64,000 bases of DNA from an uncultured Oscillospiraceae bacterium (GCA_964448355.1 CAYUWC010000003.1:16983-80982), one strand, 5' to 3'; positions 3,823 through 42,493 are shown, counted from the first letter of the stretch. The notes: generated by a model from the sequence alone, not told the origin. Numbers and translations: made by a program.

Positions 3823-4900
3823 TATTTCCGCCGCACGAGACAACATAAAAACGATACGAAACATCATCGGCAAGGACTGTGCGCTGATGTCTGTTGTTAA
3901 AGCAGACGCATACGGCCACGGAGCTGTTGAGATATCCAAAGCGATAAACGAGGAATCCGATTTTTTTGCCGTATCGAACATTGACGAAGCTATACAGCTG
4001 CGAAACGGCGGAATAACAAAGCCGATACTCATACTCGGTTACACACCTCCGCACTCGATGGAGCTTATTGCGAAATATAACGTAACGCAAACCGTTTTTT
4101 CTTACGAATACGGCAAAATGCTATCGAGCGCCGCCGAAAAGATCAAGAAAAAGATACGTGTTCACATAAAGATCGACACGGGTATGAACAGGATAGGGTT
4201 CAGCGCTCAGGACGAAGACATTCTTTGTATGTCGCTGCAAAAAATAAAAAAGCTCGCGAACGAAAGATTTCTCGAATTTGAAGGCATATTTACGCATTTT
4301 GCGGTCGCAGACGAACCGGAAGATCCGTTCACGGAAACGCAGTTTAAGCGTTTTATGAATTGCATCGAACTGCTTGAAAAAGACGGCATCAAGTTTAAGT
4401 ACCGTCATGCGGCAAACAGTGCCGCTATCTTGAATTTTCCGAAAATGAAGCTCGACATGGTCCGTCCCGGACTGATACTTTACGGAATAACGACAAATCG
4501 GCCCGACAATATAGGTCTTAAGCCCGTAATGGAATTAAAAACGACCGTCTCGTTTGTTCACGATCTCAAAAAGGGAGACACTGTAAGCTACGGGAGAATA
4601 TTTGTCGCCGACAAAAACATGAAGATCGCAACATTGCCGATAGGCTATGCGGACGGACTTTTCAGAGCGCTCTCCGAAAATATGAGCGTTATTATAAACG
4701 GTCAAAAAGCGCCGATCATCGGGCGGATCTGCATGGACCAATGTATGGCGGACGTTACGGGTCTTGATGTTAAAACAGAAGACGAAGTCATCATTTTCGG
4801 CAACGGCAAGAGCGTTTACGAACTTTCGGACGCTATTGACACGATCCCGTACGAGATAATCTGCGACATAGGCAAAAGAGTACCGCGAGTATATAAATAA
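3788..4900 (+). CDS. alr: Alanine racemase
   Basis: PLP-Lys motif VVKADAYGHGA and the Tyr region DTVSYGR. Length is 370 aa. Confidence 0.92.
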   Translation: MDHTRRTWATVDISAARDNIKTIRNIIGKDCALMSVVKADAYGHGAVEISKAINEESDFFAVSNIDEAIQLRNGGITKPILILGYTPPHSMELIAKYNVTQTVFSYEYGKMLSSAAEKIKKKIRVHIKIDTGMNRIGFSAQDEDILCMSLQKIKKLANERFLEFEGIFTHFAVADEPEDPFTETQFKRFMNCIELLEKDGIKFKYRHAANSAAILNFPKMKLDMVRPGLILYGITTNRPDNIGLKPVMELKTTVSFVHDLKKGDTVSYGRIFVADKNMKIATLPIGYADGLFRALSENMSVIINGQKAPIIGRICMDQCMADVTGLDVKTEDEVIIFGNGKSVYELSDAIDTIPYEIICDIGKRVPRVYK

Positions 4901-4903
4901 CAT

Positions 4904-4927
4904 ACGGCAGACTGCTTTGCCGTTTTT
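4904..4927 (+). terminator. Intrinsic terminator of alr
   Basis: Stem acggca/tgccgt followed by a T-run. Confidence 0.55.
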
Positions 4928-4973
4928 GGAAGCAAAACAGTGTTTTTCGTAAACAAAAATGCGTCGCTGCATA

Positions 4974-5020
4974 TAAAAAAACGCACATCTTTTCGATAGA
5001 ACATATCGCAAGATGTGCGT
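4974..5020 (-). terminator. Intrinsic terminator of the carAB-dapF-like operon
   Basis: 11-bp stem acgcacatctt/aagatgtgcgt. An A-run on the plus side gives a U-run on the minus-strand transcript. Confidence 0.7.
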
Positions 5021-5035
5021 TTGATTATTTTAAGG

Positions 5036-8000
5036 TCAAATAATTATTTCGCCGTCGAATATTTTGTTTGCGTCGCCCGTCATAAAAATGTTTTCGTCGG
5101 TGTAAGTAACTTTAAGATCGCCGTTAAACAGTTTTACGGTGATCTCCTCGCCCTTACGGCAAAAACCGTTTTCGCAAGCCGCAACGACAGCTGCGCATGC
5201 ACCCGTGCCGAACGAGCCTGTTTGACCGCAGCCGCGCTCCCAAGTACGTATCTTTATCGTTTTTTCATCGATTATCTGAACGAACTCGGCATTGATACGC
5301 TCCGGGAATTTTTCGTAATTTTCAAAGCACGGACCGATCTTTTGAACATCGAGCTTATCGACGTTTTTAACAAAAACTATACAGTGCGGGCCTTCGATAC
5401 CGACGCAGGTAATATTGTAATTTTCGTCGCCGATATTAACAAGGCGATCAACGACCTCTCCGCCGCTGAAATTAACGGGGATCGATGCAGGCGTAAGCGT
5501 AGCCTTGCCCATCTCGACACGTGCCGAAGATACCTCTTTGTTATGAACAAACAACTTGATCTTCTTTATGCCGCACACTGTCTCGACGGTAAGATCTTTT
5601 TTGTCCGTCATATGATTATCGTAAAGATATTTTCCCACGCATCTGACGGCATTGCCGAACATCTTGCTTTCACTGCCGTCTTTTTTGAACATACGTATCT
5701 TAACGTCTGCTTTGTCGGACGGGCATATAAGGACGACACCGTCGCCGCCGACGCCCGTATGTCTGTCGGAATAACGGACGGCAAGGCCTTCGGGGTTGTT
5801 TATTTTTTGATCAAAACAATTGAAATATATATAATCGTTTCCGCAGCCTTCCATTTTCGTAAAGCGAAGCTTCGTTCTTTCGGTACGCATTCTGTTGATA
5901 TCGACAAGCTCTATCGACATTTCGGAGTACTTACTCTTCAAGCTTTGCGCAAGCGCTCTTGCGGTATCGATCGATGTAAGGCACGGAATTGAGCGTTCGA
6001 CGGTCTTTCTTCTTATTTTAACGCTGTCTCTGGACGGAATACGACCTTTGGAAGATGTTGAAATAACATAATTTATCTTTCCGCTTTCAAGGAGCGTGAT
6101 GGTGTTTTCGTCGCTTTCGTGTATTTTATCGACGACGGTCACGGGTGTGCCGCCCTTGCTGATAACGTTTGCCGTTCCGCGTGTGGCATAGATCGAAAAA
6201 CCGAGATCACTGTAGCTCTTTGCGAGATCGGCGACTTCGGATTTATCGCTGTCACGAACGGTGATCATTACGCCTCTCGATCTTTTCATATTGTAGCCTG
6301 CGGCGATAAGACCCTTGTAAAGGCTTTCCTCCATCGTTCCGGCAATACCGAGAACTTCGCCGGTACTCTTCATTTCGGGACCGAGATGGTTATCGACATC
6401 GGCAAGTTTTTCAAACGAGAATACGGGGACTTTGACCGCAACATACGGAGACGAGGGATAAAGCCCCGTGCCGAAGCCCATATCTTTCAGTTTTTCTCCG
6501 AGCATAGCTCTCGTTGCCAGATCTACCATCGGAACGCCCGTAACTTTTGTTATATACGGAACGGTTCTTGACGAACGGGGATTTACCTCGATAACGTAAA
6601 GATCGTTTTCGTAAATAAGATACTGGATATTTATAAGGCCTCTTGTGTTAAGATCCACGGCAAGCTGTTTTGACGCAGACACTATCTTTTCCGTCAGTTC
6701 GTCGGAAACATTCCAAGCCGGGTACACTGCGATAGAGTCGCCGGAATGCACGCCTGTTCGCTCGATATGTTCCATAATACCGGGGATAAGAATATCCTCG
6801 CCGTCGCACACAGCATCGACTTCAAGCTCGATACCCATAAGATATTTATCGATAAGAACGGGATTTTCGATATTGTGCGACAAAATTATACTCATATATT
6901 CGACGATATCGCTCTCGCTAAACGCAATTATCATATTTTGACCGCCCAAAACATACGACGGACGCATCAAAACCGGATAGCCTATTTTTTGTGCGACCGC
7001 AAGTGCTTCTTCGGTCGTCATAACAGTATCGCCGACGGGGCGTTTGATATGATATTTTTCGAGAAGTGCGTCAAAACGTTCTCTGTCCTCGGCGGCATCG
7101 ATACTGTCGGCAGATGTGCCTATGATCTTCACACCCGCCTTATCGAGGAAATTCGTAAGTTTGATCGCTGTTTGTCCGCCGAAAGCGACAACTGCGCCGA
7201 ACGGTTTTTCCGTTTCGATAACGTTCATAACGTCTTCCGGTGTGAGCGGTTCGAAATACAGACGATCGGCAGTGTCAAAGTCGGTAGAAACGGTTTCGGG
7301 ATTGTTGTTTACAATAACGACCTCATAGCCGAGCTTTTTCAGCGATCGGCAGCAGTGTACGGACGCATAGTCGAACTCTATACCCTGACCGATACGAATG
7401 GGACCTGCGCCGAAAACAAGGACCGTCTTTTTATCGGTGGAATGTTCGTTTTTAAAGCGGAGAGCTTCGTTGTCGTCATCGTATGTCGAATAAAAATACG
7501 GCGTTTCGGCGGCAAATTCCGCAGCACACGTATCGACCATTTTAAACACGGCGGAGCGGTGGATATTAAGCTTTGTGCCGGTCAGCTGTTCGATAACGTG
7601 ATCGGGATAGCCGAGTTTTTTTGCTTCGAGATATTTTTCGTCATCGATACCCGACGCAAGTTCGGTTTCAAATTTTACAAGTTTAAGGAATTTGTTAAGG
7701 AACCATTTGTCGATCTTCGTTGCGGCATATACATCGTCAACGGATACGCCTCGCTTAAGCGCCTGATAAACAACAAAGAGACGTTCGTCGTCGCAATTGT
7801 TGAGCCGCTCACGGATCTCGGCGTCGGAAAGTACGGCAAGCTTGGGAGAATTAAGGCTCGACAGCGAGATCTCCGCGCCTCTGACGGCTTTCATTATCGC
7901 CTGTTCAAAACAAGTACCGATAGCCATTACTTCGCCCGTTGCTTTCATTTGCGTGCCGAGAGTACGTTTTGCGTAAACAAATTTGTCGAACGGCCACTTC

Positions 8001-9073
8001 GGTAATTTAACAACGATATAGTCGACCGTCGGCTCAAAACAAGCCGATGTTTTTTTAGTGATGGCGTTGGGTATTTCGTCAAGATTATAACCTACGGCTA
8101 TTTTTGACGCGACCTTTGCTATCGGATAACCCGTTGCTTTCGAAGCAAGTGCGGAAGAACGCGAAACACGGGGGTTGACTTCGATTACGGCGTATTCAAA
8201 GCTGTTGGGATTAAGCGCGAACTGAACGTTACAGCCGCCGTTGACTTTAAGTTCGGAAACGATGCTGAGAGCTGCGGTCTTGAGCATCATAAACTCTTTT
8301 GTCGCCAACGTGACCGCAGGAGCAACAACTATACTGTCTCCGGTATGAACGCCTACGGGGTCTACGTTTTCCATACTGCACACGGTAATAACGTTGCCGG
8401 CACTGTCGCGTATAACCTCAAATTCGATCTCTTTCCAACCGGACACACATTTTTCGACGAGGATCTGGTTTATGGGAGAAAGACGGATACCGTTTGACGC
8501 GATCTCGCGAAGCTGTTCTTCATCCTGTGCGATGCCGCCGCCGGTACCTCCGAGAGTGAATGCGGGGCGGATTATCAAGGGATAGCCTATTTCGCTCGCA
8601 AACTCTATTGCCGATTCGAGATCTGTAACGACTTTCGAAGGGATACAAGGCTGCCCTATTTTGAGCATTGTGTCTTTAAACAGCTGTCTGTCTTCGGCTT
8701 TATCTATAGTTTCGGGGTCCGCACCGAGAAGACGAACGCCCATTTTATCGAGAAAGCCCTCTTTTGCAAGCTGCATAGACAGGGTAAGCCCCGTTTGTCC
8801 GCCCAATGTTGACAACAGCGAATCCGGACGTTCTTTTTCGATTATTCTTTTAATAACAGGTATTGTGAGCGGCTCGATGTATATTCTGTCCGCCATTTCT
8901 TTATCCGTCATTATCGTTGCGGGATTTGAGTTAACAAGAACGACTTCTATACCCTCTTCTCTGAGCGCTCTGCAAGCCTGTGTTCCGGCATAGTCGAATT
9001 CCGCCGCCTGACCTATTACGATAGGTCCCGAACCTATAACGAGCGTCTTTTTTATCGATCTGTCAAGAGGCAT
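5036..9073 (-). CDS. carB: Carbamoyl-phosphate synthase large subunit fused in frame to a C-terminal DapF-like (diaminopimelate epimerase fold) module
   Basis: 1345 aa, against about 1070 for CarB. There are two ATP-grasp halves (GPIVIGQAAEFDYAGTQA and GPIRIGQGIEFDYASVH) and an MGS-like allosteric tail. The ORF then continues without a stop into KLRFTKMEGCGNDY...ERGCGQTGSFGTGACAA. Confidence 0.9.
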   Translation of the reverse strand: MPLDRSIKKTLVIGSGPIVIGQAAEFDYAGTQACRALREEGIEVVLVNSNPATIMTDKEMADRIYIEPLTIPVIKRIIEKERPDSLLSTLGGQTGLTLSMQLAKEGFLDKMGVRLLGADPETIDKAEDRQLFKDTMLKIGQPCIPSKVVTDLESAIEFASEIGYPLIIRPAFTLGGTGGGIAQDEEQLREIASNGIRLSPINQILVEKCVSGWKEIEFEVIRDSAGNVITVCSMENVDPVGVHTGDSIVVAPAVTLATKEFMMLKTAALSIVSELKVNGGCNVQFALNPNSFEYAVIEVNPRVSRSSALASKATGYPIAKVASKIAVGYNLDEIPNAITKKTSACFEPTVDYIVVKLPKWPFDKFVYAKRTLGTQMKATGEVMAIGTCFEQAIMKAVRGAEISLSSLNSPKLAVLSDAEIRERLNNCDDERLFVVYQALKRGVSVDDVYAATKIDKWFLNKFLKLVKFETELASGIDDEKYLEAKKLGYPDHVIEQLTGTKLNIHRSAVFKMVDTCAAEFAAETPYFYSTYDDDNEALRFKNEHSTDKKTVLVFGAGPIRIGQGIEFDYASVHCCRSLKKLGYEVVIVNNNPETVSTDFDTADRLYFEPLTPEDVMNVIETEKPFGAVVAFGGQTAIKLTNFLDKAGVKIIGTSADSIDAAEDRERFDALLEKYHIKRPVGDTVMTTEEALAVAQKIGYPVLMRPSYVLGGQNMIIAFSESDIVEYMSIILSHNIENPVLIDKYLMGIELEVDAVCDGEDILIPGIMEHIERTGVHSGDSIAVYPAWNVSDELTEKIVSASKQLAVDLNTRGLINIQYLIYENDLYVIEVNPRSSRTVPYITKVTGVPMVDLATRAMLGEKLKDMGFGTGLYPSSPYVAVKVPVFSFEKLADVDNHLGPEMKSTGEVLGIAGTMEESLYKGLIAAGYNMKRSRGVMITVRDSDKSEVADLAKSYSDLGFSIYATRGTANVISKGGTPVTVVDKIHESDENTITLLESGKINYVISTSSKGRIPSRDSVKIRRKTVERSIPCLTSIDTARALAQSLKSKYSEMSIELVDINRMRTERTKLRFTKMEGCGNDYIYFNCFDQKINNPEGLAVRYSDRHTGVGGDGVVLICPSDKADVKIRMFKKDGSESKMFGNAVRCVGKYLYDNHMTDKKDLTVETVCGIKKIKLFVHNKEVSSARVEMGKATLTPASIPVNFSGGEVVDRLVNIGDENYNITCVGIEGPHCIVFVKNVDKLDVQKIGPCFENYEKFPERINAEFVQIIDEKTIKIRTWERGCGQTGSFGTGACAAVVAACENGFCRKGEEITVKLFNGDLKVTYTDENIFMTGDANKIFDGEIII
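5039..5872 (-). other. DapF-like module (278 aa) of the CarB fusion; both catalytic Cys positions are Phe
   Basis: Aligns end to end with E. coli DapF (GNDF-like GNDY, NADGSE-like KKDGSE, ERGAGET-like ERGCGQT, GxGACA). Codons 5657-5659 and 5210-5212 read TTC on the coding strand where DapF has Cys73 and Cys217. Confidence 0.8.
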
Positions 9074-10147
9074 TTATCTCACCTTCGCTTTCATCATATT
9101 TTCCGTAAATTGTTTCCAAACAAAGCCCGTGTCGTTCGGGCCCGATATCGTTTCGGCACGGAACTGAACGGAAAAGACCGGCTTGTCCGTAAAGTCGATG
9201 CCTTCGCAGGTATTATCGTTTAAATTTTTGTATGTCATCGTGATATTTTCCGGAAGCTCCGAAGCGTCAACGGCATATCCGTGATTTTGGACCGTGATAT
9301 GCGTTTTCCCGGTTTGAGTGCAAATGATCGGGTGATTTGCACCTCTGTGGCCGTATTTGAGTTTAACGGTTTTACAGCCTGCGGCAAGCGCGATGATCTG
9401 ATGACCGAGACCTATACCGAGCATGGGTTTGCCGCTTTCCAAAAGTTTTTCGATCTGAGCCGTGATCTCCGTATTTTCCGTCGGGTCGCCGGGACCTTCC
9501 GTTAACATAACACCGTCAGGCGCCATTGCAAGGACGTCTTCGGCACTTGTTAGTGCAGGTACGACCGTAACATTGCAGCCGAGTGCATTAAGCTCTTTTA
9601 CCGCATTGCCGACAGCGCCGAGATCGTACACAACGACGGAGCAATTCGCGTTTTCGACGTTAAAATGATAGATCTTTTGGGTCGTTGTCTGCCGAACGGC
9701 GTTTTCGATCTTATAATTTTTCAGTTCTTCAAGGTCGCATTGAGGGGTCTTTGAAATTTTCGCGTTCATTACGCCGTTTTCACGAATGATACGTGTAAGG
9801 GCGCGAGTATCAAGGTCGCATATGCCGATTATCCCCTTATTTAACAAAAAGGTGGAAAGATTACCTTCACATCTGAAATTTGAAGGATCTTCACACCATT
9901 CTCGAACAATATAAGCTTTTAATTTAGGAGAAGAATCTCCGATCTCCTCGGAAATCATTCCGTAATTTCCTATAAGGGGAAAAGTTTGCATTACGATCTG
10001 ACCGAAATTACAAGGGTCGCCGAGAGTTTCGGAATAGCCGACAACACCTGTTGTAAAAACAAGCTCGCCGACAGTTTCTCCGGATGCGCCGAAAGCTCTG
10101 CCCGCAAAGACAGTTCCGTTTTCAAGAATCAAATAAATCCTGTCCAT
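9074..10147 (-). CDS. carA: Carbamoyl-phosphate synthase small subunit homolog with degenerate glutaminase triad
   Basis: Start chosen at MDRIYLILENGTVFAGRAFG, which has GGAGAG as RBS. The CarA N-domain and GATase fold are conserved. The motif reads GIGLGHQ instead of GICLGHQ, and VQFRAE instead of FQGHPE. Confidence 0.88.
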   Translation of the reverse strand: MDRIYLILENGTVFAGRAFGASGETVGELVFTTGVVGYSETLGDPCNFGQIVMQTFPLIGNYGMISEEIGDSSPKLKAYIVREWCEDPSNFRCEGNLSTFLLNKGIIGICDLDTRALTRIIRENGVMNAKISKTPQCDLEELKNYKIENAVRQTTTQKIYHFNVENANCSVVVYDLGAVGNAVKELNALGCNVTVVPALTSAEDVLAMAPDGVMLTEGPGDPTENTEITAQIEKLLESGKPMLGIGLGHQIIALAAGCKTVKLKYGHRGANHPIICTQTGKTHITVQNHGYAVDASELPENITMTYKNLNDNTCEGIDFTDKPVFSVQFRAETISGPNDTGFVWKQFTENMMKAKVR

Positions 10148-10319
10148 ATATAGCTCTCCTAACATATAAAATAATCTTGAACCGCTTTTTCCGATGCAAC
10201 TGCACAATTGCCGCTATTATATAATTGATGCAATTCACATAATTGCGCAGAAAAAAAGGCGCTCACCGGGCGTATGACAGACAGCCACACAACCGACAAA
10301 CGCCCTTGTCTAAATTGAT

Positions 10320-10348
10320 ATTATACATTATTTTACAGTCCTTGTCAA
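10320..10348 (-). promoter_or_regulatory. Sigma-A type promoter of carA (TTGACA-17-TATAAT)
   Basis: On the minus strand: ttgaca aggactgtaaaataatg tataat. This is a perfect consensus, about 165 nt upstream of the carA start. Confidence 0.6.
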
Positions 10349-10375
10349 TATTCGCTTTTTTAATTTTTTTTGACA

Positions 10376-10404
10376 TTGATATTTAAACGCTTTTCGGGTA
10401 CAAT
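10376..10404 (+). promoter_or_regulatory. Candidate promoter of the DUF1540 gene (TTGATA-17-TACAAT)
   Basis: Hexamers and 17-nt spacing were read directly from the sequence. Confidence 0.45.
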
Positions 10405-10454
10405 ATCTTTACGGCGAAGTCCGAAACACGAAATACAGAAAGGGAAATGATTTT

Positions 10455-10760
10455 ATGACGGATATATATTGTTCTGTTAGTCAATGCGCGCACAACAAAG
10501 AAAACTGCTGTTGTCTCGAAAATATAAAGGTCGGAGGCGACAATGCGCATTCCACCGAGGGAACACGCTGTGACAGCTTTATACGCGAACATGCCACTAT
10601 GTCTCTCGGCGAAAGCATTTGTCACTGCACGCTCATCGATTGCGAAGCCGAAGATTGTAAGTACAATTGCGAAGGCGAGTGCTGCGCCGAATCGATCGAC
10701 ATCGGCGTAAAAGAGTGCTGCAGCTGCGATGATACGTGCTGTTGTACGTTCAAAAAATAA
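10455..10760 (+). CDS. DUF1540 domain protein (cysteine-rich, two repeats)
   Basis: 101 aa with 19 Cys. The pattern C-x4-C-x-N...CC...I.V...T.C.SF occurs twice, as in DUF1540 proteins of spore formers. Confidence 0.75.
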   Translation: MTDIYCSVSQCAHNKENCCCLENIKVGGDNAHSTEGTRCDSFIREHATMSLGESICHCTLIDCEAEDCKYNCEGECCAESIDIGVKECCSCDDTCCCTFKK

Positions 10761-10780
10761 CGAAACGTCCGTATCCCGAA

Positions 10781-10812
10781 AAAGGCTCACAAGTAAAATT
10801 GTGAGCCTTTTT
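10781..10812 (+). terminator. Intrinsic terminator of the DUF1540 gene
   Basis: 10-bp stem aaaggctcac/gtgagccttt followed by a T-run. Confidence 0.75.
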
Positions 10813-10834
10813 ATGCAAACGGAATGAAGACCTA

Positions 10835-10863
10835 TTGGCATCTCCGACATTCTATGTTAAAAT
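10835..10863 (+). promoter_or_regulatory. Candidate promoter (TTGGCA-17-TAAAAT) in front of a structured RNA
   Basis: Hexamers and 17-nt spacing were read from the sequence. The predicted transcription start falls at the base of the long hairpin. Confidence 0.45.
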
Positions 10864-10869
10864 AATTAT

Positions 10870-11008
10870 GCTACACATTATGAATACTGCCTAATTAGAG
10901 GGAATACCATAGATAAAAATGTATTCTCTCCCCTTTGATTAGGCAAAATGTGTAGCAACATTGAGAGATGCATTTTTTGTGCGTCTCTTGATGGGGCGCA
11001 CTTTTTTT
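10870..11008 (+). ncRNA. Candidate structured RNA or attenuator: ~88-nt imperfect hairpin plus competing hairpin and terminator
   Basis: gctacacatt (10870-79) pairs with aatgtgtagc (10947-56). Inner arms are tgcctaat/attaggca and gaatac/gtattc. Then agagatgca/tgcgtctct (10964-88) overlaps gtgcg/cgcac (10979-11001), which is followed by T7. Confidence 0.35.
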
Positions 11009-18644: not shown

Positions 18645-19235
18645 ATGCCGTTTAATTACAATAAATCAGAATTTTTATGCAGTTATTTCGACGCGAAGCA
18701 GCTTTCGCTTGAGCGAAAACCGGAGGTCGTTTTTGTCGGTCGTTCAAACGCGGGAAAAAGCTCCATGATAAACAAGCTTGTAAACCGCAAAAAATTCGCC
18801 TACACAAGTTCCAAGCCCGGCAAAACAGCTGCCATCAACTATTTTTCCGTGGATAACAAAATATATATCGTCGATCTTCCGGGATACGGATTTGCGCAAA
18901 GATCAAAGACCGAGCGAAAAAGCTGGGGCAGCTTGATAGAAACGTATTTTGACCTCGGCAGGGATATGCGGCTTGTTGTACTGTTAATCGATATACGCCA
19001 CGGGCCGACGGCAGACGACGAAATGATGTACGATTATTTGATGTCAAAAACCGTACCTTTCTGCGTTGCCGCAACAAAATCGGACAAGGTCTCGAAAACT
19101 GCGGCGAGCGAAATGGTACAAAAGATAAGCGAGTGCTTCGGTGTTAACGCATTTTCGTTTTCCTCACAGACGGGAGAAGGCGTGGATACGTTAAAAGCCA
19201 TAATCGAAGACTTGACGGAGGAAAAAGATGATTGA
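18645..19235 (+). CDS. engB: Ribosome biogenesis GTP-binding protein YsxC/EngB
   Basis: G1 motif GRSNAGKSS and DLPGYG. Length is 196 aa. Confidence 0.9.
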   Translation: MPFNYNKSEFLCSYFDAKQLSLERKPEVVFVGRSNAGKSSMINKLVNRKKFAYTSSKPGKTAAINYFSVDNKIYIVDLPGYGFAQRSKTERKSWGSLIETYFDLGRDMRLVVLLIDIRHGPTADDEMMYDYLMSKTVPFCVAATKSDKVSKTAASEMVQKISECFGVNAFSFSSQTGEGVDTLKAIIEDLTEEKDD

Positions 19236-20508
19236 AAAACAAGACGGCGTACTTTGTATTGACGGCGTAAAAGTCACGGATATAGTAAACGAATACGGAA
19301 CGCCGTGTTATATAATGTCGGAAAAAACGATAAGGGAAAACTGCCGTAAATACAAAAATGCGATAGAAAATTATTACGGCGGCAACGGACTTCCCGTTTA
19401 CGCGTCAAAAGCGTTTTCCTGCAAAGAGATATACAGGATCGTTGCAAGCGAGGGGTTCGGCGCGGACGTTGTTTCGGGCGGAGAGCTTTACACGGCGCTA
19501 AAAGCAGGCTTTGACCCCCAAAAGCTGTATTTTCACGGTAATGCCAAAACGGTTTTCGAGCTTAAAACAGCGGTCGAAAGCGGCGTTGGGCGCATTGTTG
19601 TGGATAATCTCGAAGAGCTTTTAACATTAGACCGCATTGCTGCAGAGCAAAACAAGGTCGCCGATATCTCGTTCAGAATAAAACCGGGCGTTGAAGCACA
19701 CACGCACGATTTTGTCAAAACAGGACAGATAGACTCCAAATTCGGCGTTGCGCTCGAAAACGGCGAAGCGTTCGAGATCATAAAAACGGTGTCGAAAATG
19801 AAGAATGTTAACGTTGTGGGCGTACACTGCCATATCGGTTCGCAGATATTCGACGAAGATCCGTTTGTGCTTGCCGCAAAGGTAATGCTCAAATTTATTG
19901 CAGAAGTAAAAACAAAGCTTTCACTCGACATACGCGAGTTAAATCTCGGCGGCGGTTTCGGCATAAAATACACGGAAGACCAAGACCCGAAAGATTACGA
20001 CGAATATATGCGCCGTGTTTCGCAGACGGTAAAAAGCGAATGCGAGGCACTCGGCATCGATATTCCGTTTATGGTAGTCGAGCCGGGACGGAGCATTGTG
20101 GGAGCTGCGGGAATAACGGCGTACACCGTTACATCAGTAAAAACGATCGAGCAAATACGGAGCTATGTTGCAATCGACGGCGGTATGACCGACAATCCCA
20201 GATATGCGCTTTACAGATCGGAATACACCGCAGCCATAGCGAACAAGGCTGATCTGCCTCGGGATTTTGAAGCGACGATCGCAGGCAGATGCTGCGAAAG
20301 CGGCGATCTTATCGGGGAAAAGATGTTGATACAGCGTCCCGAAGCGGGAGATATACTTGTTGTGTTCGCAACAGGGGCTTACAACTACTCGATGGCGTCG
20401 AACTACAATCGCGTTCCTCGTCCGCCGGTCGTTATGATAACGGACGGAAAACCGAGACTTGTTGTAAAAAGAGAAACGTACGAAGACATTGTTAAAAACG
20501 ACATATAA
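19228..20508 (+). CDS. lysA: Diaminopimelate decarboxylase
   Basis: Fold-III PLP decarboxylase motifs YASKAF, EPGRSIVG and CESGD. It overlaps the end of engB. Confidence 0.9.
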   Translation: MIEKQDGVLCIDGVKVTDIVNEYGTPCYIMSEKTIRENCRKYKNAIENYYGGNGLPVYASKAFSCKEIYRIVASEGFGADVVSGGELYTALKAGFDPQKLYFHGNAKTVFELKTAVESGVGRIVVDNLEELLTLDRIAAEQNKVADISFRIKPGVEAHTHDFVKTGQIDSKFGVALENGEAFEIIKTVSKMKNVNVVGVHCHIGSQIFDEDPFVLAAKVMLKFIAEVKTKLSLDIRELNLGGGFGIKYTEDQDPKDYDEYMRRVSQTVKSECEALGIDIPFMVVEPGRSIVGAAGITAYTVTSVKTIEQIRSYVAIDGGMTDNPRYALYRSEYTAAIANKADLPRDFEATIAGRCCESGDLIGEKMLIQRPEAGDILVVFATGAYNYSMASNYNRVPRPPVVMITDGKPRLVVKRETYEDIVKNDI

Positions 20509-27571: not shown

Positions 27572-27577
27572 AAAAGA

Positions 27578-27757
27578 AAACTTCGGGGTAGGGTGAAATT
27601 CCCTGACCGGTGGTTACAGCCCACGAACCTGTTTTTACAGGCCGAAACGGTGAGATTCCGTTGCCGACGGTACAGTCCGGATGGCAGAAGATATTGCGGC
27701 GCAGCTGCGTCTTATTATGCGAAAAAGTTCCCGAATAACGGGAACTTTATTTTTTTT
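27578..27757 (+). promoter_or_regulatory. FMN riboswitch (RFN element) with intrinsic terminator
   Basis: cttcggggtagggtgaaattccctgaccggtgg...ggtgagattccgttgccgacggtacagtccggatggcagaagat matches the RFN core. The terminator is aaagttcccg/cgggaacttt plus T8, at 27724-27757. Confidence 0.9.
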
Positions 27758-27800: not shown

Positions 27801-28062
27801 GAATATCTGTTTTACGCATAGATCCACCGTAAAACGGTTCCCGACAAGTTTTTGCCACCAAGCGTTTGCCGCAACACGACTGGGTGAATTTTATTAACTT
27901 TATATTCCGTCGCCATGACTGCGGAATAGCGATTACGAAAAAACAGTACGAAATTTAATGATTCGCAAATGGAAAGATTATCTGCCTCACGCATAAATCC
28001 ACCGTAAAACGGTACCCGACAAGTTTATGTTCGCCGCAGAAGAATTTAATTAACTTTTTATA
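27801..28062 (+). repeat. ~175-bp tandem duplication between the riboswitch terminator and ribU
   Basis: The unit atctg..acgcata(g/a)atccaccgtaaaacggt(t/a)cccgacaagttt...gaattt(t)a(a)ttaactt(t)t(t)atat occurs at 27801-27905 and 27977-28062. Confidence 0.75.
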
Positions 28063-28073
28063 TGGAGGTTGTT

Positions 28074-28736
28074 ATGAATATTAAAATAACACATTTGATC
28101 ATTGCGCTCACGGCGTTATTCATTGCCGTGCTGATCGTTGTGACGACATTGGCAATAAAAAAACGGAAAAAGACAGCGATAACAAGCAAACGTTCCGTCA
28201 AACAACTGGCAACTTTAGGTGTTATGTCTGCATTAAGCATAGTTTTGATGATCTTAATACGTGTACCGTTCCCGACGGCGCCGTTTCTCGAATACGACCC
28301 CGCAGACGTCCCGATACTGATCTCGACGTTTTTGTTCGGACCGTGGTGGGGTTTGTTAATGACGGCGGTCGTAAGCGTTATTCAAGGAATAACGGTAAGC
28401 ACGTCGAGCGGTATTATAGGCATTATAATGCACATCACGGCGACAGGCGGTTTTGTTTTGTCGGCAGGGGCGATATACAAACGAGGCAAAAGCATGAAAA
28501 GAGCGATCGCGGCTCTCGTGTGCGGCTCCGTTGTTCAGACGATACTTATGGCGGGAATGAATCTTGTGTTAACACCTGTTTTCATGAACACTCCGCTTCA
28601 AACCGTGCTCGGCATGATGATCCCGACTATAATCCCGTTTAATCTTATAAAAGCGGGGTTGAACGCAGTGATAACGTTTTTTGTTTACAAATTCGTATCC
28701 AAAACCGTTTCAAAAATCTTCGATCAAACGGCTTGA
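28074..28736 (+). CDS. ribU: Riboflavin transporter, ECF S-component RibU
   Basis: GGAGG lies 5 nt upstream of ATG 28074. It is a polytopic protein (LEYDPADVPILISTFLFGPWWG) downstream of the FMN riboswitch. Confidence 0.8.
   Translation: MNIKITHLIIALTALFIAVLIVVTTLAIKKRKKTAITSKRSVKQLATLGVMSALSIVLMILIRVPFPTAPFLEYDPADVPILISTFLFGPWWGLLMTAVVSVIQGITVSTSSGIIGIIMHITATGGFVLSAGAIYKRGKSMKRAIAALVCGSVVQTILMAGMNLVLTPVFMNTPLQTVLGMMIPTIIPFNLIKAGLNAVITFFVYKFVSKTVSKIFDQTA

Positions 28737-39542: not shown

Positions 39543-42493
<2,951 letters not shown>

What the first reader, a model, noticed from the sequence alone, without database searches (positions are those of the whole stretch)
5036..10348. Operon-level pattern: an intact CarB sandwiched between two apparently inactivated enzyme modules
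The single transcription unit runs from a perfect TTGACA-17-TATAAT promoter at 10320-10348, through a ~165-nt leader, to the terminator at 4974-5020. It encodes a triad-less CarA, a canonical-looking CarB with both ATP-grasp halves intact, and a fused Cys-less DapF fold. Two independent losses of catalytic nucleophiles in one complex suggest a remodelled carbamoyl-phosphate synthase. One possibility is ammonia use together with a new allosteric input related to DAP, lysine or cell-wall precursors. That is more likely than random decay, because both degenerate modules keep long intact reading frames and conserved fold motifs. This is inference only.
Basis: inference. Interest (0 to 1): 0.75.

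Follow-up and report, generated by a model that had tools for sequence, protein, structure and literature searches.

The report
Ammonia-type carbamoyl-phosphate synthase with dead domains
A gut or rumen Clostridia bacterium keeps an intact carbamoyl-phosphate synthase core flanked by a glutaminase subunit and a fused diaminopimelate epimerase domain that have both lost their catalytic residues yet stay under purifying selection, and this pattern recurs in related lineages.

Summary
One promoter-to-terminator unit (10348 to 4972, minus strand) encodes two proteins.

- **CarA:** Cys269 is Gly and His353 is Arg (E. coli numbering). Glu355 is kept.
- **CarB::DapF fusion (1345 aa):** CarB is canonical. 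In the DapF domain both catalytic Cys are Phe.

An independent assembly of a conspecific strain (L163) shows the same states, so this is not a sequencing error.

- The CarB-DapF fusion is not special to this locus. It is ancestral and widespread in Oscillospirales, and most copies keep every catalytic residue.
- Catalytic loss is recurrent: at least six lineages lost the CarA Cys and at least six lost DapF Cys73. Four lost both, so the overlap is enriched but not obligate.
- Dead modules are still selected. DapF omega is 0.01-0.03 in relatives and 0.043 between the two strains.
- Only this species also lost DAP-pocket residues, which argues against a DAP sensor here.

Best reading: an ammonia-dependent CPS with a pseudo-glutaminase subunit, analogous to vertebrate CPS I, and a structurally retained pseudo-DapF domain. 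This probably reflects ammonium-based nitrogen metabolism, with meso-DAP made elsewhere (lysA is in the window). It is a new variant of a known kind, of moderate interest.

The parts
10320..10348 (-). Sigma-70-type promoter TTGACA-17-TATAAT (-35 at 10348-10343, -10 at 10325-10320)
   Evidence: 12/12 match, the only perfect site in 4500-11000. The promoter is conserved in clade relatives.
10248..10307 (-). Leader hairpin (10307-10255) followed by a U7 run (10254-10248), starting about 7 nt after the presumed transcription start. It looks like a terminator and is a possible attenuator.
   Evidence: Minimum-free-energy fold. Sequence and 20 base pairs are conserved in seven clade leaders, mostly through one-sided G-U/G-C changes. 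No Rfam family matches.
9074..10147 (-). carA', a 357-aa CPS small subunit homologue with a dead glutaminase site: Gly246 (9410-9412) replaces Cys269, Arg330 (9158-9160) replaces His353, and Glu332 (9152-9154) is kept
   Evidence: NF009475 386 bits. Alignment to E. coli CarA structures. Codons. Deviates at 22 of 136 positions conserved in canonical CarA, 17 of them in the GATase half. P0121 is identical.
5906..9073 (-). CarB part of the fusion (residues 1 to about 1056): both ATP-grasp halves, the oligomerisation domain and the MGS-like allosteric domain
   Evidence: NF003671 1482 bits. End-to-end alignment to E. coli CarB with catalytic motifs intact. Omega 0.018 against strain L163. No excess of changes at conserved positions compared with a distant canonical relative.
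5039..5866 (-). DapF' pseudo-epimerase domain (residues 1070-1345), joined almost directly to the natural CarB C-terminus. Phe1139 (5657-5659) replaces Cys73 and Phe1288 (5210-5212) replaces Cys217. Also Lys1130, Glu1227, Gly1228, Gln1284, Gly1286 and Ser1287 at pocket positions.
   Evidence: TIGR00652 247.5 bits. Alignment to DapF structures. Pocket table over 115 sequences. 12 of 91 conserved positions changed, against 0-2 in clade relatives. Omega 0.043 against L163, with 12 synonymous and 2 non-synonymous changes, p = 4.6e-7 against neutrality.
5036..5038 (-). Stop codon TGA of the fusion ORF
4972..5022 (-). Intrinsic terminator: a 13-bp outer and 5-bp inner stem (5022-4979) followed by a U7 run
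   Evidence: dG -24.7 kcal/mol, z = -5.6, 0 of 200 shuffles as stable. Sequence read.

Best explanation
The locus encodes the carbamoyl-phosphate synthase (CPS) of an uncultured Oscillospirales bacterium. Only the synthetase core, CarB, still catalyses.

Shown:
- CarA has lost the Cys-His pair needed to hydrolyse glutamine.
- The C-terminal DapF domain has lost both general-base cysteines and several DAP-pocket residues.
- CarB is intact.
- The DapF domain (between the two strains) and all three modules (across the clade) evolve under purifying selection.
- The ancestral state in the order was an active carA + carB::dapF operon.

Inferred:
- The enzyme makes carbamoyl phosphate from free NH3, as vertebrate CPS I and isolated CarB do.
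- CarA' stays as a structural partner of the carboxyphosphate domain.
- DapF' stays because the fold is now part of the CPS architecture. It may support the allosteric domain or provide a dimer contact. The aromatic residue aligned with E. coli DapF Tyr268 is kept as Phe1339.
- DapF' acts neither as an epimerase nor, in this species, as a DAP sensor.
- meso-DAP for LysA (encoded at 19228-20508) and for the cell wall must come from another enzyme. The most plausible is an NH4+-dependent meso-DAP dehydrogenase (Ddh).
- The recurrent, partly coupled loss of glutaminase and epimerase activity then reflects a shift to ammonium-based nitrogen assimilation. This mirrors the split described in Bacteroides thetaiotaomicron between CarAB+DapLF (low NH4+) and CarB2+Ddh (high NH4+).
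For: Catalytic states come from alignments to solved structures and codons, and are reproduced in an independent strain assembly. CarB is intact.

Selection, window against L163: CarB omega 0.018. DapF' omega 0.043, p = 4.6e-7 against neutrality.

Selection within the Phe/Cys clade: DapF omega 0.01-0.03, CarA GATase half 0.06-0.2, CarB 0.02-0.06. The Gly codon at CarA position 269 varies synonymously across the clade (GGT, GGC, GGG, GGA), so the state is old and maintained.

Recurrence: at least six independent losses of DapF Cys73 and at least six of the CarA Cys. Four lineages have both.

Window-specific DapF changes concentrate in the pocket: 7 of 19 pocket positions against 24 of 208 others, Fisher p = 0.007. 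That pattern fits a fold kept for structure after the ligand site became dispensable.

Literature:
- Cys269 and His353 are essential for glutamine hydrolysis, and CarB alone makes carbamoyl phosphate from ammonia (PMC6245113).
- CPS I lost the same Cys and takes external ammonia (PMC4655335).
- In B. thetaiotaomicron, carAB and dapLF sit in one low-ammonium locus, and Ddh plus orphan CarB2 replace them at high ammonium (PMC8121099).
- The DapF C73A/C217A double mutant has no detectable epimerase activity. DapF also has a protein-partner role: the epimerase-inactive monomeric Y268A mutant still stimulates RppH (PMC6061791).

Context in the window: lysA (TIGR01048, 484 bits) and an NADP-specific glutamate dehydrogenase (NF006929, 778 bits).
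Against: - No ddh, second dapF or second carA/carB was seen. Only 64 kb of this genome and about 10 kb either side of the match in relatives could be read, so the supply of meso-DAP and the absence of a redundant canonical CPS are untested.
- E. coli CPS uses ammonia only at very high, probably non-physiological concentrations (PMC6245113). An ammonia-only enzyme would need better NH3 affinity or a very ammonium-rich cytoplasm. No adaptive change in CarB was demonstrated. The only hint is convergent replacement of Gln262.
- Canonical and degenerate lineages come from the same kinds of habitat (rumen and gut MAGs), so habitat alone does not explain the losses.
- Dead DapF with a live CarA, and the reverse, both exist.
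- CarA between the two strains has 3 synonymous and 4 non-synonymous changes (omega 0.38, not significant). Present-day constraint on CarA' is therefore shown only at clade depth.
- The structural role of DapF' is inferred from selection alone.
Confidence: 0.55

Rival explanations
1. First reader's version. The Cys-less DapF fold is a new allosteric sensor that couples CPS activity to DAP, lysine or cell-wall precursors, on an ammonia-using enzyme.
For: The domain is fused directly to the CarB allosteric domain and is under purifying selection. In every lineage that lost only Cys73, and in most that lost both Cys, all DAP-contacting residues stay invariant. Cys73 is always the first cysteine lost and Cys217 is never lost alone. 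That looks directional, not random.
Against: In this window the pocket itself is dismantled: Asn64 to Lys, Gly156/Asn157 to Glu/Gly, and GETWAC to GQTGSF. This combination is unique among 115 sequences. Two bulky Phe residues replace the Cys pair that flanks the substrate C-alpha. The window branch shows roughly 2.5-fold faster amino-acid change in DapF relative to CarB (derived). The sensor idea therefore fits the relatives better than this locus.
Confidence: 0.12
2. Redundant paralogue. The genome has another canonical CPS and DapF, and this operon is a specialised or slowly decaying extra copy whose side activities became dispensable.
For: The rest of the genome could not be searched. Bacteria with two CPS enzymes are known (cited in PMC8121099). 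CarA and DapF evolve faster than CarB. CarA omega between strains is not distinguishable from neutral.
Against: There are no stops, frameshifts or indels in two strains and about 12 clade relatives, although synonymous sites are saturated. The one exception is a possible assembly frameshift in L081. DapF omega is 0.01-0.04 and CarB omega 0.018. A perfect promoter and a conserved leader are kept. No genome contributed two loci among the 80 genome loci. Even if a paralogue exists, this enzyme would still be glutamine-blind.
Confidence: 0.15
3. Neo-functionalisation. One or both dead sites gained a new chemistry or ligand. Examples are a relocated nucleophile in CarA (Ser47 to Cys), or a hydrophobic-ligand pocket or new one-base reaction in DapF.
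For: CarA Ser47 (E. coli numbering; by recollection it lies next to the thioester site, which was not checked here) is Cys in the whole clade and independently in L116. Window-specific DapF substitutions are enriched in the pocket. By recollection, in the proline-racemase superfamily loss of one Cys converts racemases into dehydratases.
Against: In this window His353 is also gone, so no Cys-His pair remains. Other dead lineages carry Asn, Lys or Ser at position 47. Pocket changes in the window remove polar ligand contacts rather than converging on a recognisable new motif. No independent lineage shares them.
Confidence: 0.08
4. Artefact. The substitutions are sequencing or assembly errors, or the locus is a chimera.
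For: None beyond the prior that MAG-derived sequence can contain errors.
Against: The same states appear in an independent assembly from another run with 170 nucleotide differences in the fusion gene. carA is identical in a third assembly (L162). Synteny is conserved and GC is even. The Phe at the Cys73 position and the Gly at the Cys269 position are shared by 12 relatives.
Confidence: 0.01

Closest known systems
Vertebrate CPS I (mitochondrial, ammonia-dependent carbamoyl-phosphate synthetase)
   Same: A complete CPS keeps an ancestral class-I glutaminase fold whose catalytic Cys is replaced (Ser294 in human), so it must take ammonia from the medium. The dead domain is retained as part of the architecture (PMC4655335).
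   Different: CPS I is a single polypeptide and needs N-acetylglutamate. Here the enzyme has two bacterial subunits, the His is lost as well, the Cys is replaced by Gly, and an unrelated pseudo-enzyme domain hangs on the allosteric domain. Activator dependence is unknown.
E. coli CarAB (CPS II) and its Cys269 mutants
   Same: Same subunit organisation, same fold and same motifs. From memory (Rubino, Nyunoya and Lusty 1986), laboratory Cys269 to Gly or Ser enzymes lose glutamine-dependent but keep NH3-dependent synthesis. The natural variant here has the same Cys to Gly change.
   Different: Wild-type CarAB is glutamine-dependent, and its ammonia reaction needs very high concentrations (PMC6245113). 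E. coli CarB has no DapF domain.
Bacteroides thetaiotaomicron CarB2 + Ddh versus CarAB + DapLF (Liu et al. 2021, PMC8121099)
   Same: It links the same two functions: glutamine-dependent CPS and the DapF route are low-ammonium tools that are co-located and co-regulated. An ammonia-dependent CPS and Ddh replace them at high ammonium. This gives a rationale for a carB-dapF fusion and for their partly coupled inactivation.
   Different: In Bacteroides the switch is between separate genes and CarB2 has no small subunit. Here the same operon has been converted in place and keeps both dead parts. Ddh was not found in the sequence available.
Canonical CarB::DapF fusion operons of Ruminococcus, Acutalibacteraceae and other Oscillospirales
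   Same: Same gene order and same fusion point, with 70-77% identity over the fusion. Public databases annotate these only as 'carbamoyl-phosphate synthase large subunit' or 'diaminopimelate epimerase, partial'.
   Different: These keep Cys73, Cys217 and the CarA triad. In the large Ruminococcus-type group pyrG follows with a 4-nt overlap. The window clade has a terminator and convergent alr instead.
DapF as a non-catalytic protein partner (E. coli DapF-RppH)
   Same: The DapF fold acts through protein contacts. The epimerase-inactive monomeric Y268A mutant still stimulates RppH (PMC6061791).
   Different: The partner is different and there is no fusion. In E. coli DapF remains an active epimerase.

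Membership tests
CPS large subunit CarB (NF003671 / TIGR01369) | Full-length match to the equivalog model above the curated cut-off | tested here: met
   1482 bits against cut-off 599 over residues 1-1049; TIGR01369 1436 bits against 1027
CPS large subunit CarB (NF003671 / TIGR01369) | Two ATP-grasp halves with conserved nucleotide and Mg motifs, plus the oligomerisation and MGS-like allosteric domains | tested here: met
   Pfam D1/D2 twice, D3 and MGS. Motifs GVHTGDS, NVQFA and IEVNPRVSRSS in the first half and GVHSGDS, NIQY and IEVNPRSSRT in the second align with E. coli.
CPS large subunit CarB (NF003671 / TIGR01369) | Carbamoyl-phosphate synthesis activity | not testable with these tools
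   Only indirect support: omega 0.018
Glutamine-hydrolysing CPS small subunit CarA (class I amidotransferase) | Sequence family membership (N-terminal CPSase_sm_chain domain plus GATase domain) | tested here: met
   NF009475 386 bits against 221; Pfam PF00988 and PF00117
Glutamine-hydrolysing CPS small subunit CarA (class I amidotransferase) | Nucleophile Cys269 in the G-x-C-x-G elbow | tested here: not met
   Gly246 in GIGLGHQ
Glutamine-hydrolysing CPS small subunit CarA (class I amidotransferase) | His353 and Glu355 of the triad | tested here: not met
   His is replaced by Arg330; Glu332 is kept. Ser47 to Cys and Asn240 to Glu are further changes at positions conserved in canonical CarA.
Diaminopimelate epimerase DapF (TIGR00652) | Full-length match above the curated cut-off; two-domain DapF fold | tested here: met
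   247.5 bits against 114.65; two PF01678 repeats; E = 8e-72 to B. anthracis DapF 2otn over the full length
Diaminopimelate epimerase DapF (TIGR00652) | Catalytic thiol pair Cys73 and Cys217 | tested here: not met
   Both are Phe. The C73A/C217A mutant has no detectable epimerase activity (PMC6061791).
Diaminopimelate epimerase DapF (TIGR00652) | Conserved DAP-contacting residues (Asn11, Asn64, Gly74/Asn75, Asn157, Asn190, Glu208/Arg209, Gly218/Thr219). The residue roles are recalled from the H. influenzae structures. | tested here: not met
   Asn64 to Lys and Asn157 to Gly are lost and the flanking GETWA motif is changed. The other residues are kept.
CPS I-type ammonia-dependent CPS (works-like comparison) | Inactive glutaminase module retained next to an intact synthetase | tested here: met
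CPS I-type ammonia-dependent CPS (works-like comparison) | Use of free ammonia with physiological affinity; N-acetylglutamate dependence; single polypeptide | not testable with these tools
   Kinetics are unknown. The protein has two subunits, so it is not a member by architecture.

The most novel reading that the evidence does not exclude
Gut and rumen Oscillospirales carry a previously undescribed bifunctional CPS-DapF enzyme. Its glutaminase and epimerase activities form one 'low-ammonium' module that evolution has switched off repeatedly and partly in concert. This would yield the first bacterial two-subunit, CPS I-like ammonia-dependent CPS. In the intermediate forms, Cys73 is lost but the pocket and Cys217 are strictly conserved. 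In those forms the DapF domain may have become a DAP-binding regulatory domain of CPS. The window species would be the end state, in which even ligand binding is gone and the fold serves only as scaffold.
Probability: 0.3. Interest if true: 0.75.

Novelty: new variant of a known kind. Interest (0 to 1): 0.55.

Why it matters
Reviews state that glutamine is the physiological nitrogen donor of all bacterial CPSs (PMC6245113). The only proposed bacterial exception is the orphan CarB2 of Bacteroides (PMC8121099).

These loci would add a second, independent route to an ammonia-dependent bacterial CPS: in-place inactivation of CarA, as in the evolution of vertebrate CPS I. The route has been taken at least six times.

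The CarB::DapF fusion, and the enriched joint loss of the two activities, give comparative-genomic support for the idea that gut anaerobes treat glutamine-dependent carbamoyl-phosphate synthesis and the DapL/DapF branch of DAP synthesis as one ammonium-responsive unit.

The strict order of loss (Cys73 first, never Cys217 alone) and the very strong constraint on single-Cys domains offer a natural series for studying how an enzyme domain becomes a pseudo-enzyme.

On the practical side, automatic annotation calls these proteins 'glutamine-hydrolyzing' CarA and 'diaminopimelate epimerase'. For these lineages that is probably wrong, and it would mislead metabolic reconstructions of rumen MAGs.

Tried and rejected
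- **Second copy in the window.** A tblastn of the window's own CarA and fusion proteins found only the self hits.
- **ddh search.** It found nothing.
- **Known RNA element in the leader.** Rfam at gathering threshold and at E <= 1 found nothing relevant.
- **Strict co-occurrence of CarA and DapF inactivation.** This looked perfect in the first 80 genome loci. Metagenome loci L102, L104, L105 and L108 broke it.
- **Fusion coupled to triad loss.** Rejected: the fusion is ancestral and mostly catalytically intact.
- **Nucleophile relocation to Cys47 in CarA.** Considered and set aside for this species because His353 is also lost.
- **Assembly chimera or sequencing error.** Rejected.
- **dapL next to canonical operons.** Not found. 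The downstream gene in canonical loci is pyrG.
- **Literature.** Searches for a described CarB-DapF fusion, a triad-less bacterial CarA, or Ddh in Ruminococcus found nothing relevant.
- **Structure prediction.** Not run. The tools return no coordinates, so pocket geometry or domain packing could not have been read. Retention of the fold is already clear from the HMM and PDB alignments.

Full report
**1. What is in the sequence**

Two adjacent minus-strand ORFs occupy 5036-10207.

The upstream ORF is a CarA homologue. It matches NF009475 at 386 bits and carries Pfam CPSase_sm_chain plus GATase. Its listed TTG start at 10207 is an in-frame upstream extension. Homology, an AGGAGAG ribosome-binding site and the identical 357-aa database protein P0121 all place the start at ATG 10147.

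The carA stop codon TAA is followed immediately by the ATG of a 1345-aa ORF, with AAGGTGAG just upstream. This suggests translational coupling.

Residues 1-1049 of that ORF match the CarB equivalog model at 1482 bits (cut-off 599). Residues 1070-1343 match the DapF equivalog TIGR00652 at 247.5 bits (cut-off 114.65). The E. coli CarB alignment runs to residue 1065 of 1073, so DapF is joined almost directly to the natural CarB C-terminus.

**2. Catalytic residues**

Against E. coli CarA structures, the nucleophile elbow GICLGHQ reads GIGLGHQ, and QGHPE reads QFRAE. So Cys269 is Gly246, His353 is Arg330, and Glu355 is retained.

Against DapF structures, S/MCGNG reads KMFGNA and ACGTG reads SFGTG. 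So Cys73 is Phe1139 and Cys217 is Phe1288. The Phe1139, Phe1288 and Arg330 codons are each one nucleotide from the Cys or His codon that relatives carry at that position. Gly246 (GGT) is one step from TGT.

CarB keeps the motifs of both ATP-grasp sites.

**3. Signals**

- The promoter at 10348-10320 is a 12/12 match.
- The terminator hairpin at 5022-4979 plus a U7 run is strong: dG -24.7 kcal/mol, z = -5.6.
- The leader of about 166 nt begins with a 52-nt hairpin followed by U7 (10307-10248). The hairpin is conserved in the clade and matches no Rfam family.

**4. Not an artefact**

P0121 equals the window's CarA and is recorded from NCBI and Logan.

Locus L163 comes from another sequencing run and is 96-97.6% identical to the window. 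It carries the full operon with the same Gly/Arg/Glu and Phe/Phe states and the same pocket changes.

Gene order around the operon matches relatives. GC content shows no break.

**5. Relatives**

A genome scan gave 80 loci and a metagenome scan gave more. All full-length genome loci have carA followed by a carB::dapF fusion.

The carriers are rumen and gut MAGs labelled Ruminococcus, Acutalibacteraceae, Oscillospiraceae and Monoglobales. Protein-database hits are annotated only as 'carbamoyl-phosphate synthase large subunit' or 'diaminopimelate epimerase, partial'.

Of 66 genome loci with both genes, 50 keep all five catalytic residues. The ancestral state is therefore an active bifunctional operon. 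The fusion itself is neither unique to this window nor linked to inactivation.

In the large Ruminococcus-type group, pyrG follows the fusion with a 4-nt overlap.

**6. Recurrent inactivation**

The window belongs to a clade (L001-L008, L081, L110) in which DapF Cys73 is Phe and CarA Cys269 is Gly. Cys217 and all other DapF pocket residues are kept in those relatives.

Other lineages, placed on CarB neighbour-joining trees:

| Lineage | DapF state | CarA state |
|---|---|---|
| L010/L011 | Cys73 to Gly | Cys to Ser, His to Ile |
| L021 | Cys73 to Gly | Cys to Gly, His to Ser |
| L074/L079/L097 | Cys73 to Gly | Cys to Gly, His to Ile or Met |
| L115 | Cys73 to Gly | Cys to Gly, His to Ile |
| L062/L075 | intact | dead |
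| L073 | intact | His only lost |
| L116 | unknown | dead |
| L102, L104, L105, L108 | dead | intact triad |

This gives at least six independent losses of each activity, with four lineages losing both. A crude lineage count assumes about 40 lineages, 7 CarA losses and 6 DapF losses. Under independence it predicts about one overlap, and a hypergeometric test gives P of about 0.005. That is my calculation, not a tree-aware test. The association is enriched but not obligate, and either loss can come first.

One regularity stands out. Cys73 is always the first DapF cysteine to go. About 13 protein clusters and at least six locus lineages have lost Cys73 alone, about eight have lost both, and none has lost Cys217 alone.

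**7. Selection**

Within the Phe/Cys clade, synonymous sites are near saturation. The DapF domain nevertheless has omega 0.01-0.03, as low as CarB (0.02-0.06). The CarA GATase half has omega 0.06-0.2.

Window against L163 is unsaturated:

| Module | Synonymous changes | Non-synonymous changes | Omega | Test against neutrality |
|---|---|---|---|---|
| CarB | 146 | 10 | 0.018 | P = 1.4e-79 |
| Linker + DapF' | 12 | 2 | 0.043 | P = 4.6e-7 |
| CarA' | 3 | 4 | 0.38 | not significant |

Even the doubly Cys-less DapF domain is therefore under purifying selection today.

**8. What is special about this species**

Among 115 aligned DapF domains, only the window combines Phe/Phe with Asn64 to Lys, Gly156/Asn157 to Glu/Gly, and GETWAC to GQTGSF.

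It deviates at 12 of 91 positions that are at least 95% conserved, against 0-2 for its clade relatives. The other double-Cys losers, L102 and L108, deviate at 15-20.

Window-specific changes are enriched in the pocket: 7 of 19 positions against 24 of 208, Fisher p = 0.007. A three-taxon decomposition of the dN values gives the window branch about 2.5 times more DapF change relative to CarB than the sister branches.

The domain has thus passed from 'catalytically crippled but pocket intact' to 'pocket dismantled, fold retained'.

CarA in every dead lineage deviates at 16-44 of 136 conserved positions, mostly in the GATase half. Canonical CarA sequences deviate at 0-4. CarB shows no excess over a distant canonical relative.

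**9. Mechanism**

Cys269 and His353 are essential for glutamine hydrolysis, and CarB alone synthesises carbamoyl phosphate from ammonia (PMC6245113). CPS I lost the same Cys and takes external ammonia by a path that bypasses the old glutaminase site (PMC4655335). The gate residues Cys232, Ala251 and Ala314 are conserved here. I therefore infer an ammonia-dependent CPS with a structural pseudo-glutaminase subunit.

The DapF C73A/C217A mutant has no detectable epimerase activity (PMC6061791), so DapF' cannot epimerise DAP. With its pocket gone, it most likely survives as a structural part of CPS. The aromatic residue aligned with the dimer-interface Tyr268 is kept as Phe1339 (role of Tyr268 from PMC6061791).

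The window also encodes LysA, so meso-DAP is still needed and must be made elsewhere.

The B. thetaiotaomicron fitness study supplies the link. There, carAB and dapLF lie in one low-ammonium locus, while orphan CarB2 and Ddh take over at high ammonium (PMC8121099). A lineage committed to ammonium would need neither the glutaminase nor DapF. An NADP-specific glutamate dehydrogenase lies in the window, which fits but does not prove this.

Weak points:
- ddh was not found in the little sequence available.
- E. coli CPS has poor affinity for ammonia.
- Canonical relatives share the same habitats.

One hint of adaptation in CarB: Gln262 is at least 90% conserved in lineages with a live CarA. It is replaced by Met, Ala, Gly or Gly in four independent dead-CarA lineages. 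By my recollection this residue lies next to tunnel-lining Tyr261, which I could not verify here.

**10. Verdict**

It is wrong that the fusion tracks the triad loss, and probably wrong, for this species, about a DAP or lysine sensor.

I found no paper describing the CarB::DapF fusion or a triad-less bacterial CarA. The finding is a new variant of a known kind, with moderate interest. Its main value lies in the lineage-wide pattern rather than in this single locus.

Noticed in passing
window 10248-10307 (-): A 52-nt hairpin plus a U7 run starts about 7 nt after the presumed transcription start of carA. The 5' arm GGGCGUUUGUCGG and 20 base pairs are conserved in the clade. The element is absent from L010/L011, and no Rfam family matches. 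It may be a transcription attenuator with an unknown signal.
   Followed up: partly
DapF domain, residues aligned with Cys73 and Cys217, in loci L001-L115 and proteins P0001-P0120: The order of loss is asymmetric. Cys73 is replaced (by Phe, Gly, Ser or Ala) in many independent lineages while Cys217 and the whole DAP pocket stay invariant. Cys217 is never lost alone. Single-Cys domains are as constrained as CarB (omega 0.01-0.03).
   Followed up: partly
window 8288-8290 (CarB residue 262) and the same column in L074/L079/L097, L115 and L116: CarB Gln262 (E. coli numbering) is at least 90% conserved where CarA is live. It is replaced by Met, Ala, Gly or Gly in four independent dead-CarA lineages. 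The window also changes residues 258, 261, 265 and 266. This may mark a remodelled ammonia path or CarA interface.
   Followed up: partly
window 9947-9949 (CarA residue 46 of 357, aligned with E. coli Ser47); also L116: Ser47 of the glutamine site is Cys in the whole window clade and, independently, in L116. Asn240 is Glu or Asp in several dead lineages.
   Followed up: partly
window 19228-20508 (+) and 39543-41045 (-): lysA (diaminopimelate decarboxylase, TIGR01048 484 bits) and an NADP-specific glutamate dehydrogenase (NF006929 778 bits). The profile match in the GDH ORF starts at residue 57, so its true start is probably downstream. The organism still consumes meso-DAP although its fused DapF is dead.
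   Followed up: partly
L018 11062-12660 and 67 other canonical loci: In Ruminococcus-type canonical operons pyrG (CTP synthase, another glutamine amidotransferase) follows carB::dapF with a 4-nt overlap. None of the lineages with a dead CarA or DapF has pyrG in the locus. This includes L062, which is nested among pyrG-linked relatives. The pattern is confounded by phylogeny.
   Followed up: partly
window 5036-10147 compared with L163 10001-15112: Divergence between the two conspecific strains is mosaic. dS is 0.23 in carB, 0.067 in the dapF part and 0.013 in carA. This suggests recombination inside the operon.
   Followed up: no
L081 6851-10852: In this clade member carB (1008 aa) and dapF (283 aa, P0002) are called as separate ORFs in different frames that overlap near residues 975-993. 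It is either an assembly frameshift or a real split of the fusion.
   Followed up: no
window 27575-27696 (+): An FMN riboswitch (RF00050, 102 bits) lies upstream of an ECF riboflavin transporter S component (28062-28736).
   Followed up: no
window 10455-10760 (+): A 101-aa Cys-rich ORF (motifs such as CCC and CxxxC) lies upstream of carA on the opposite strand. A 10/12 promoter-like site at 10376-10404 precedes it. NCBIfam gives no hit; Pfam was not searched.
   Followed up: no
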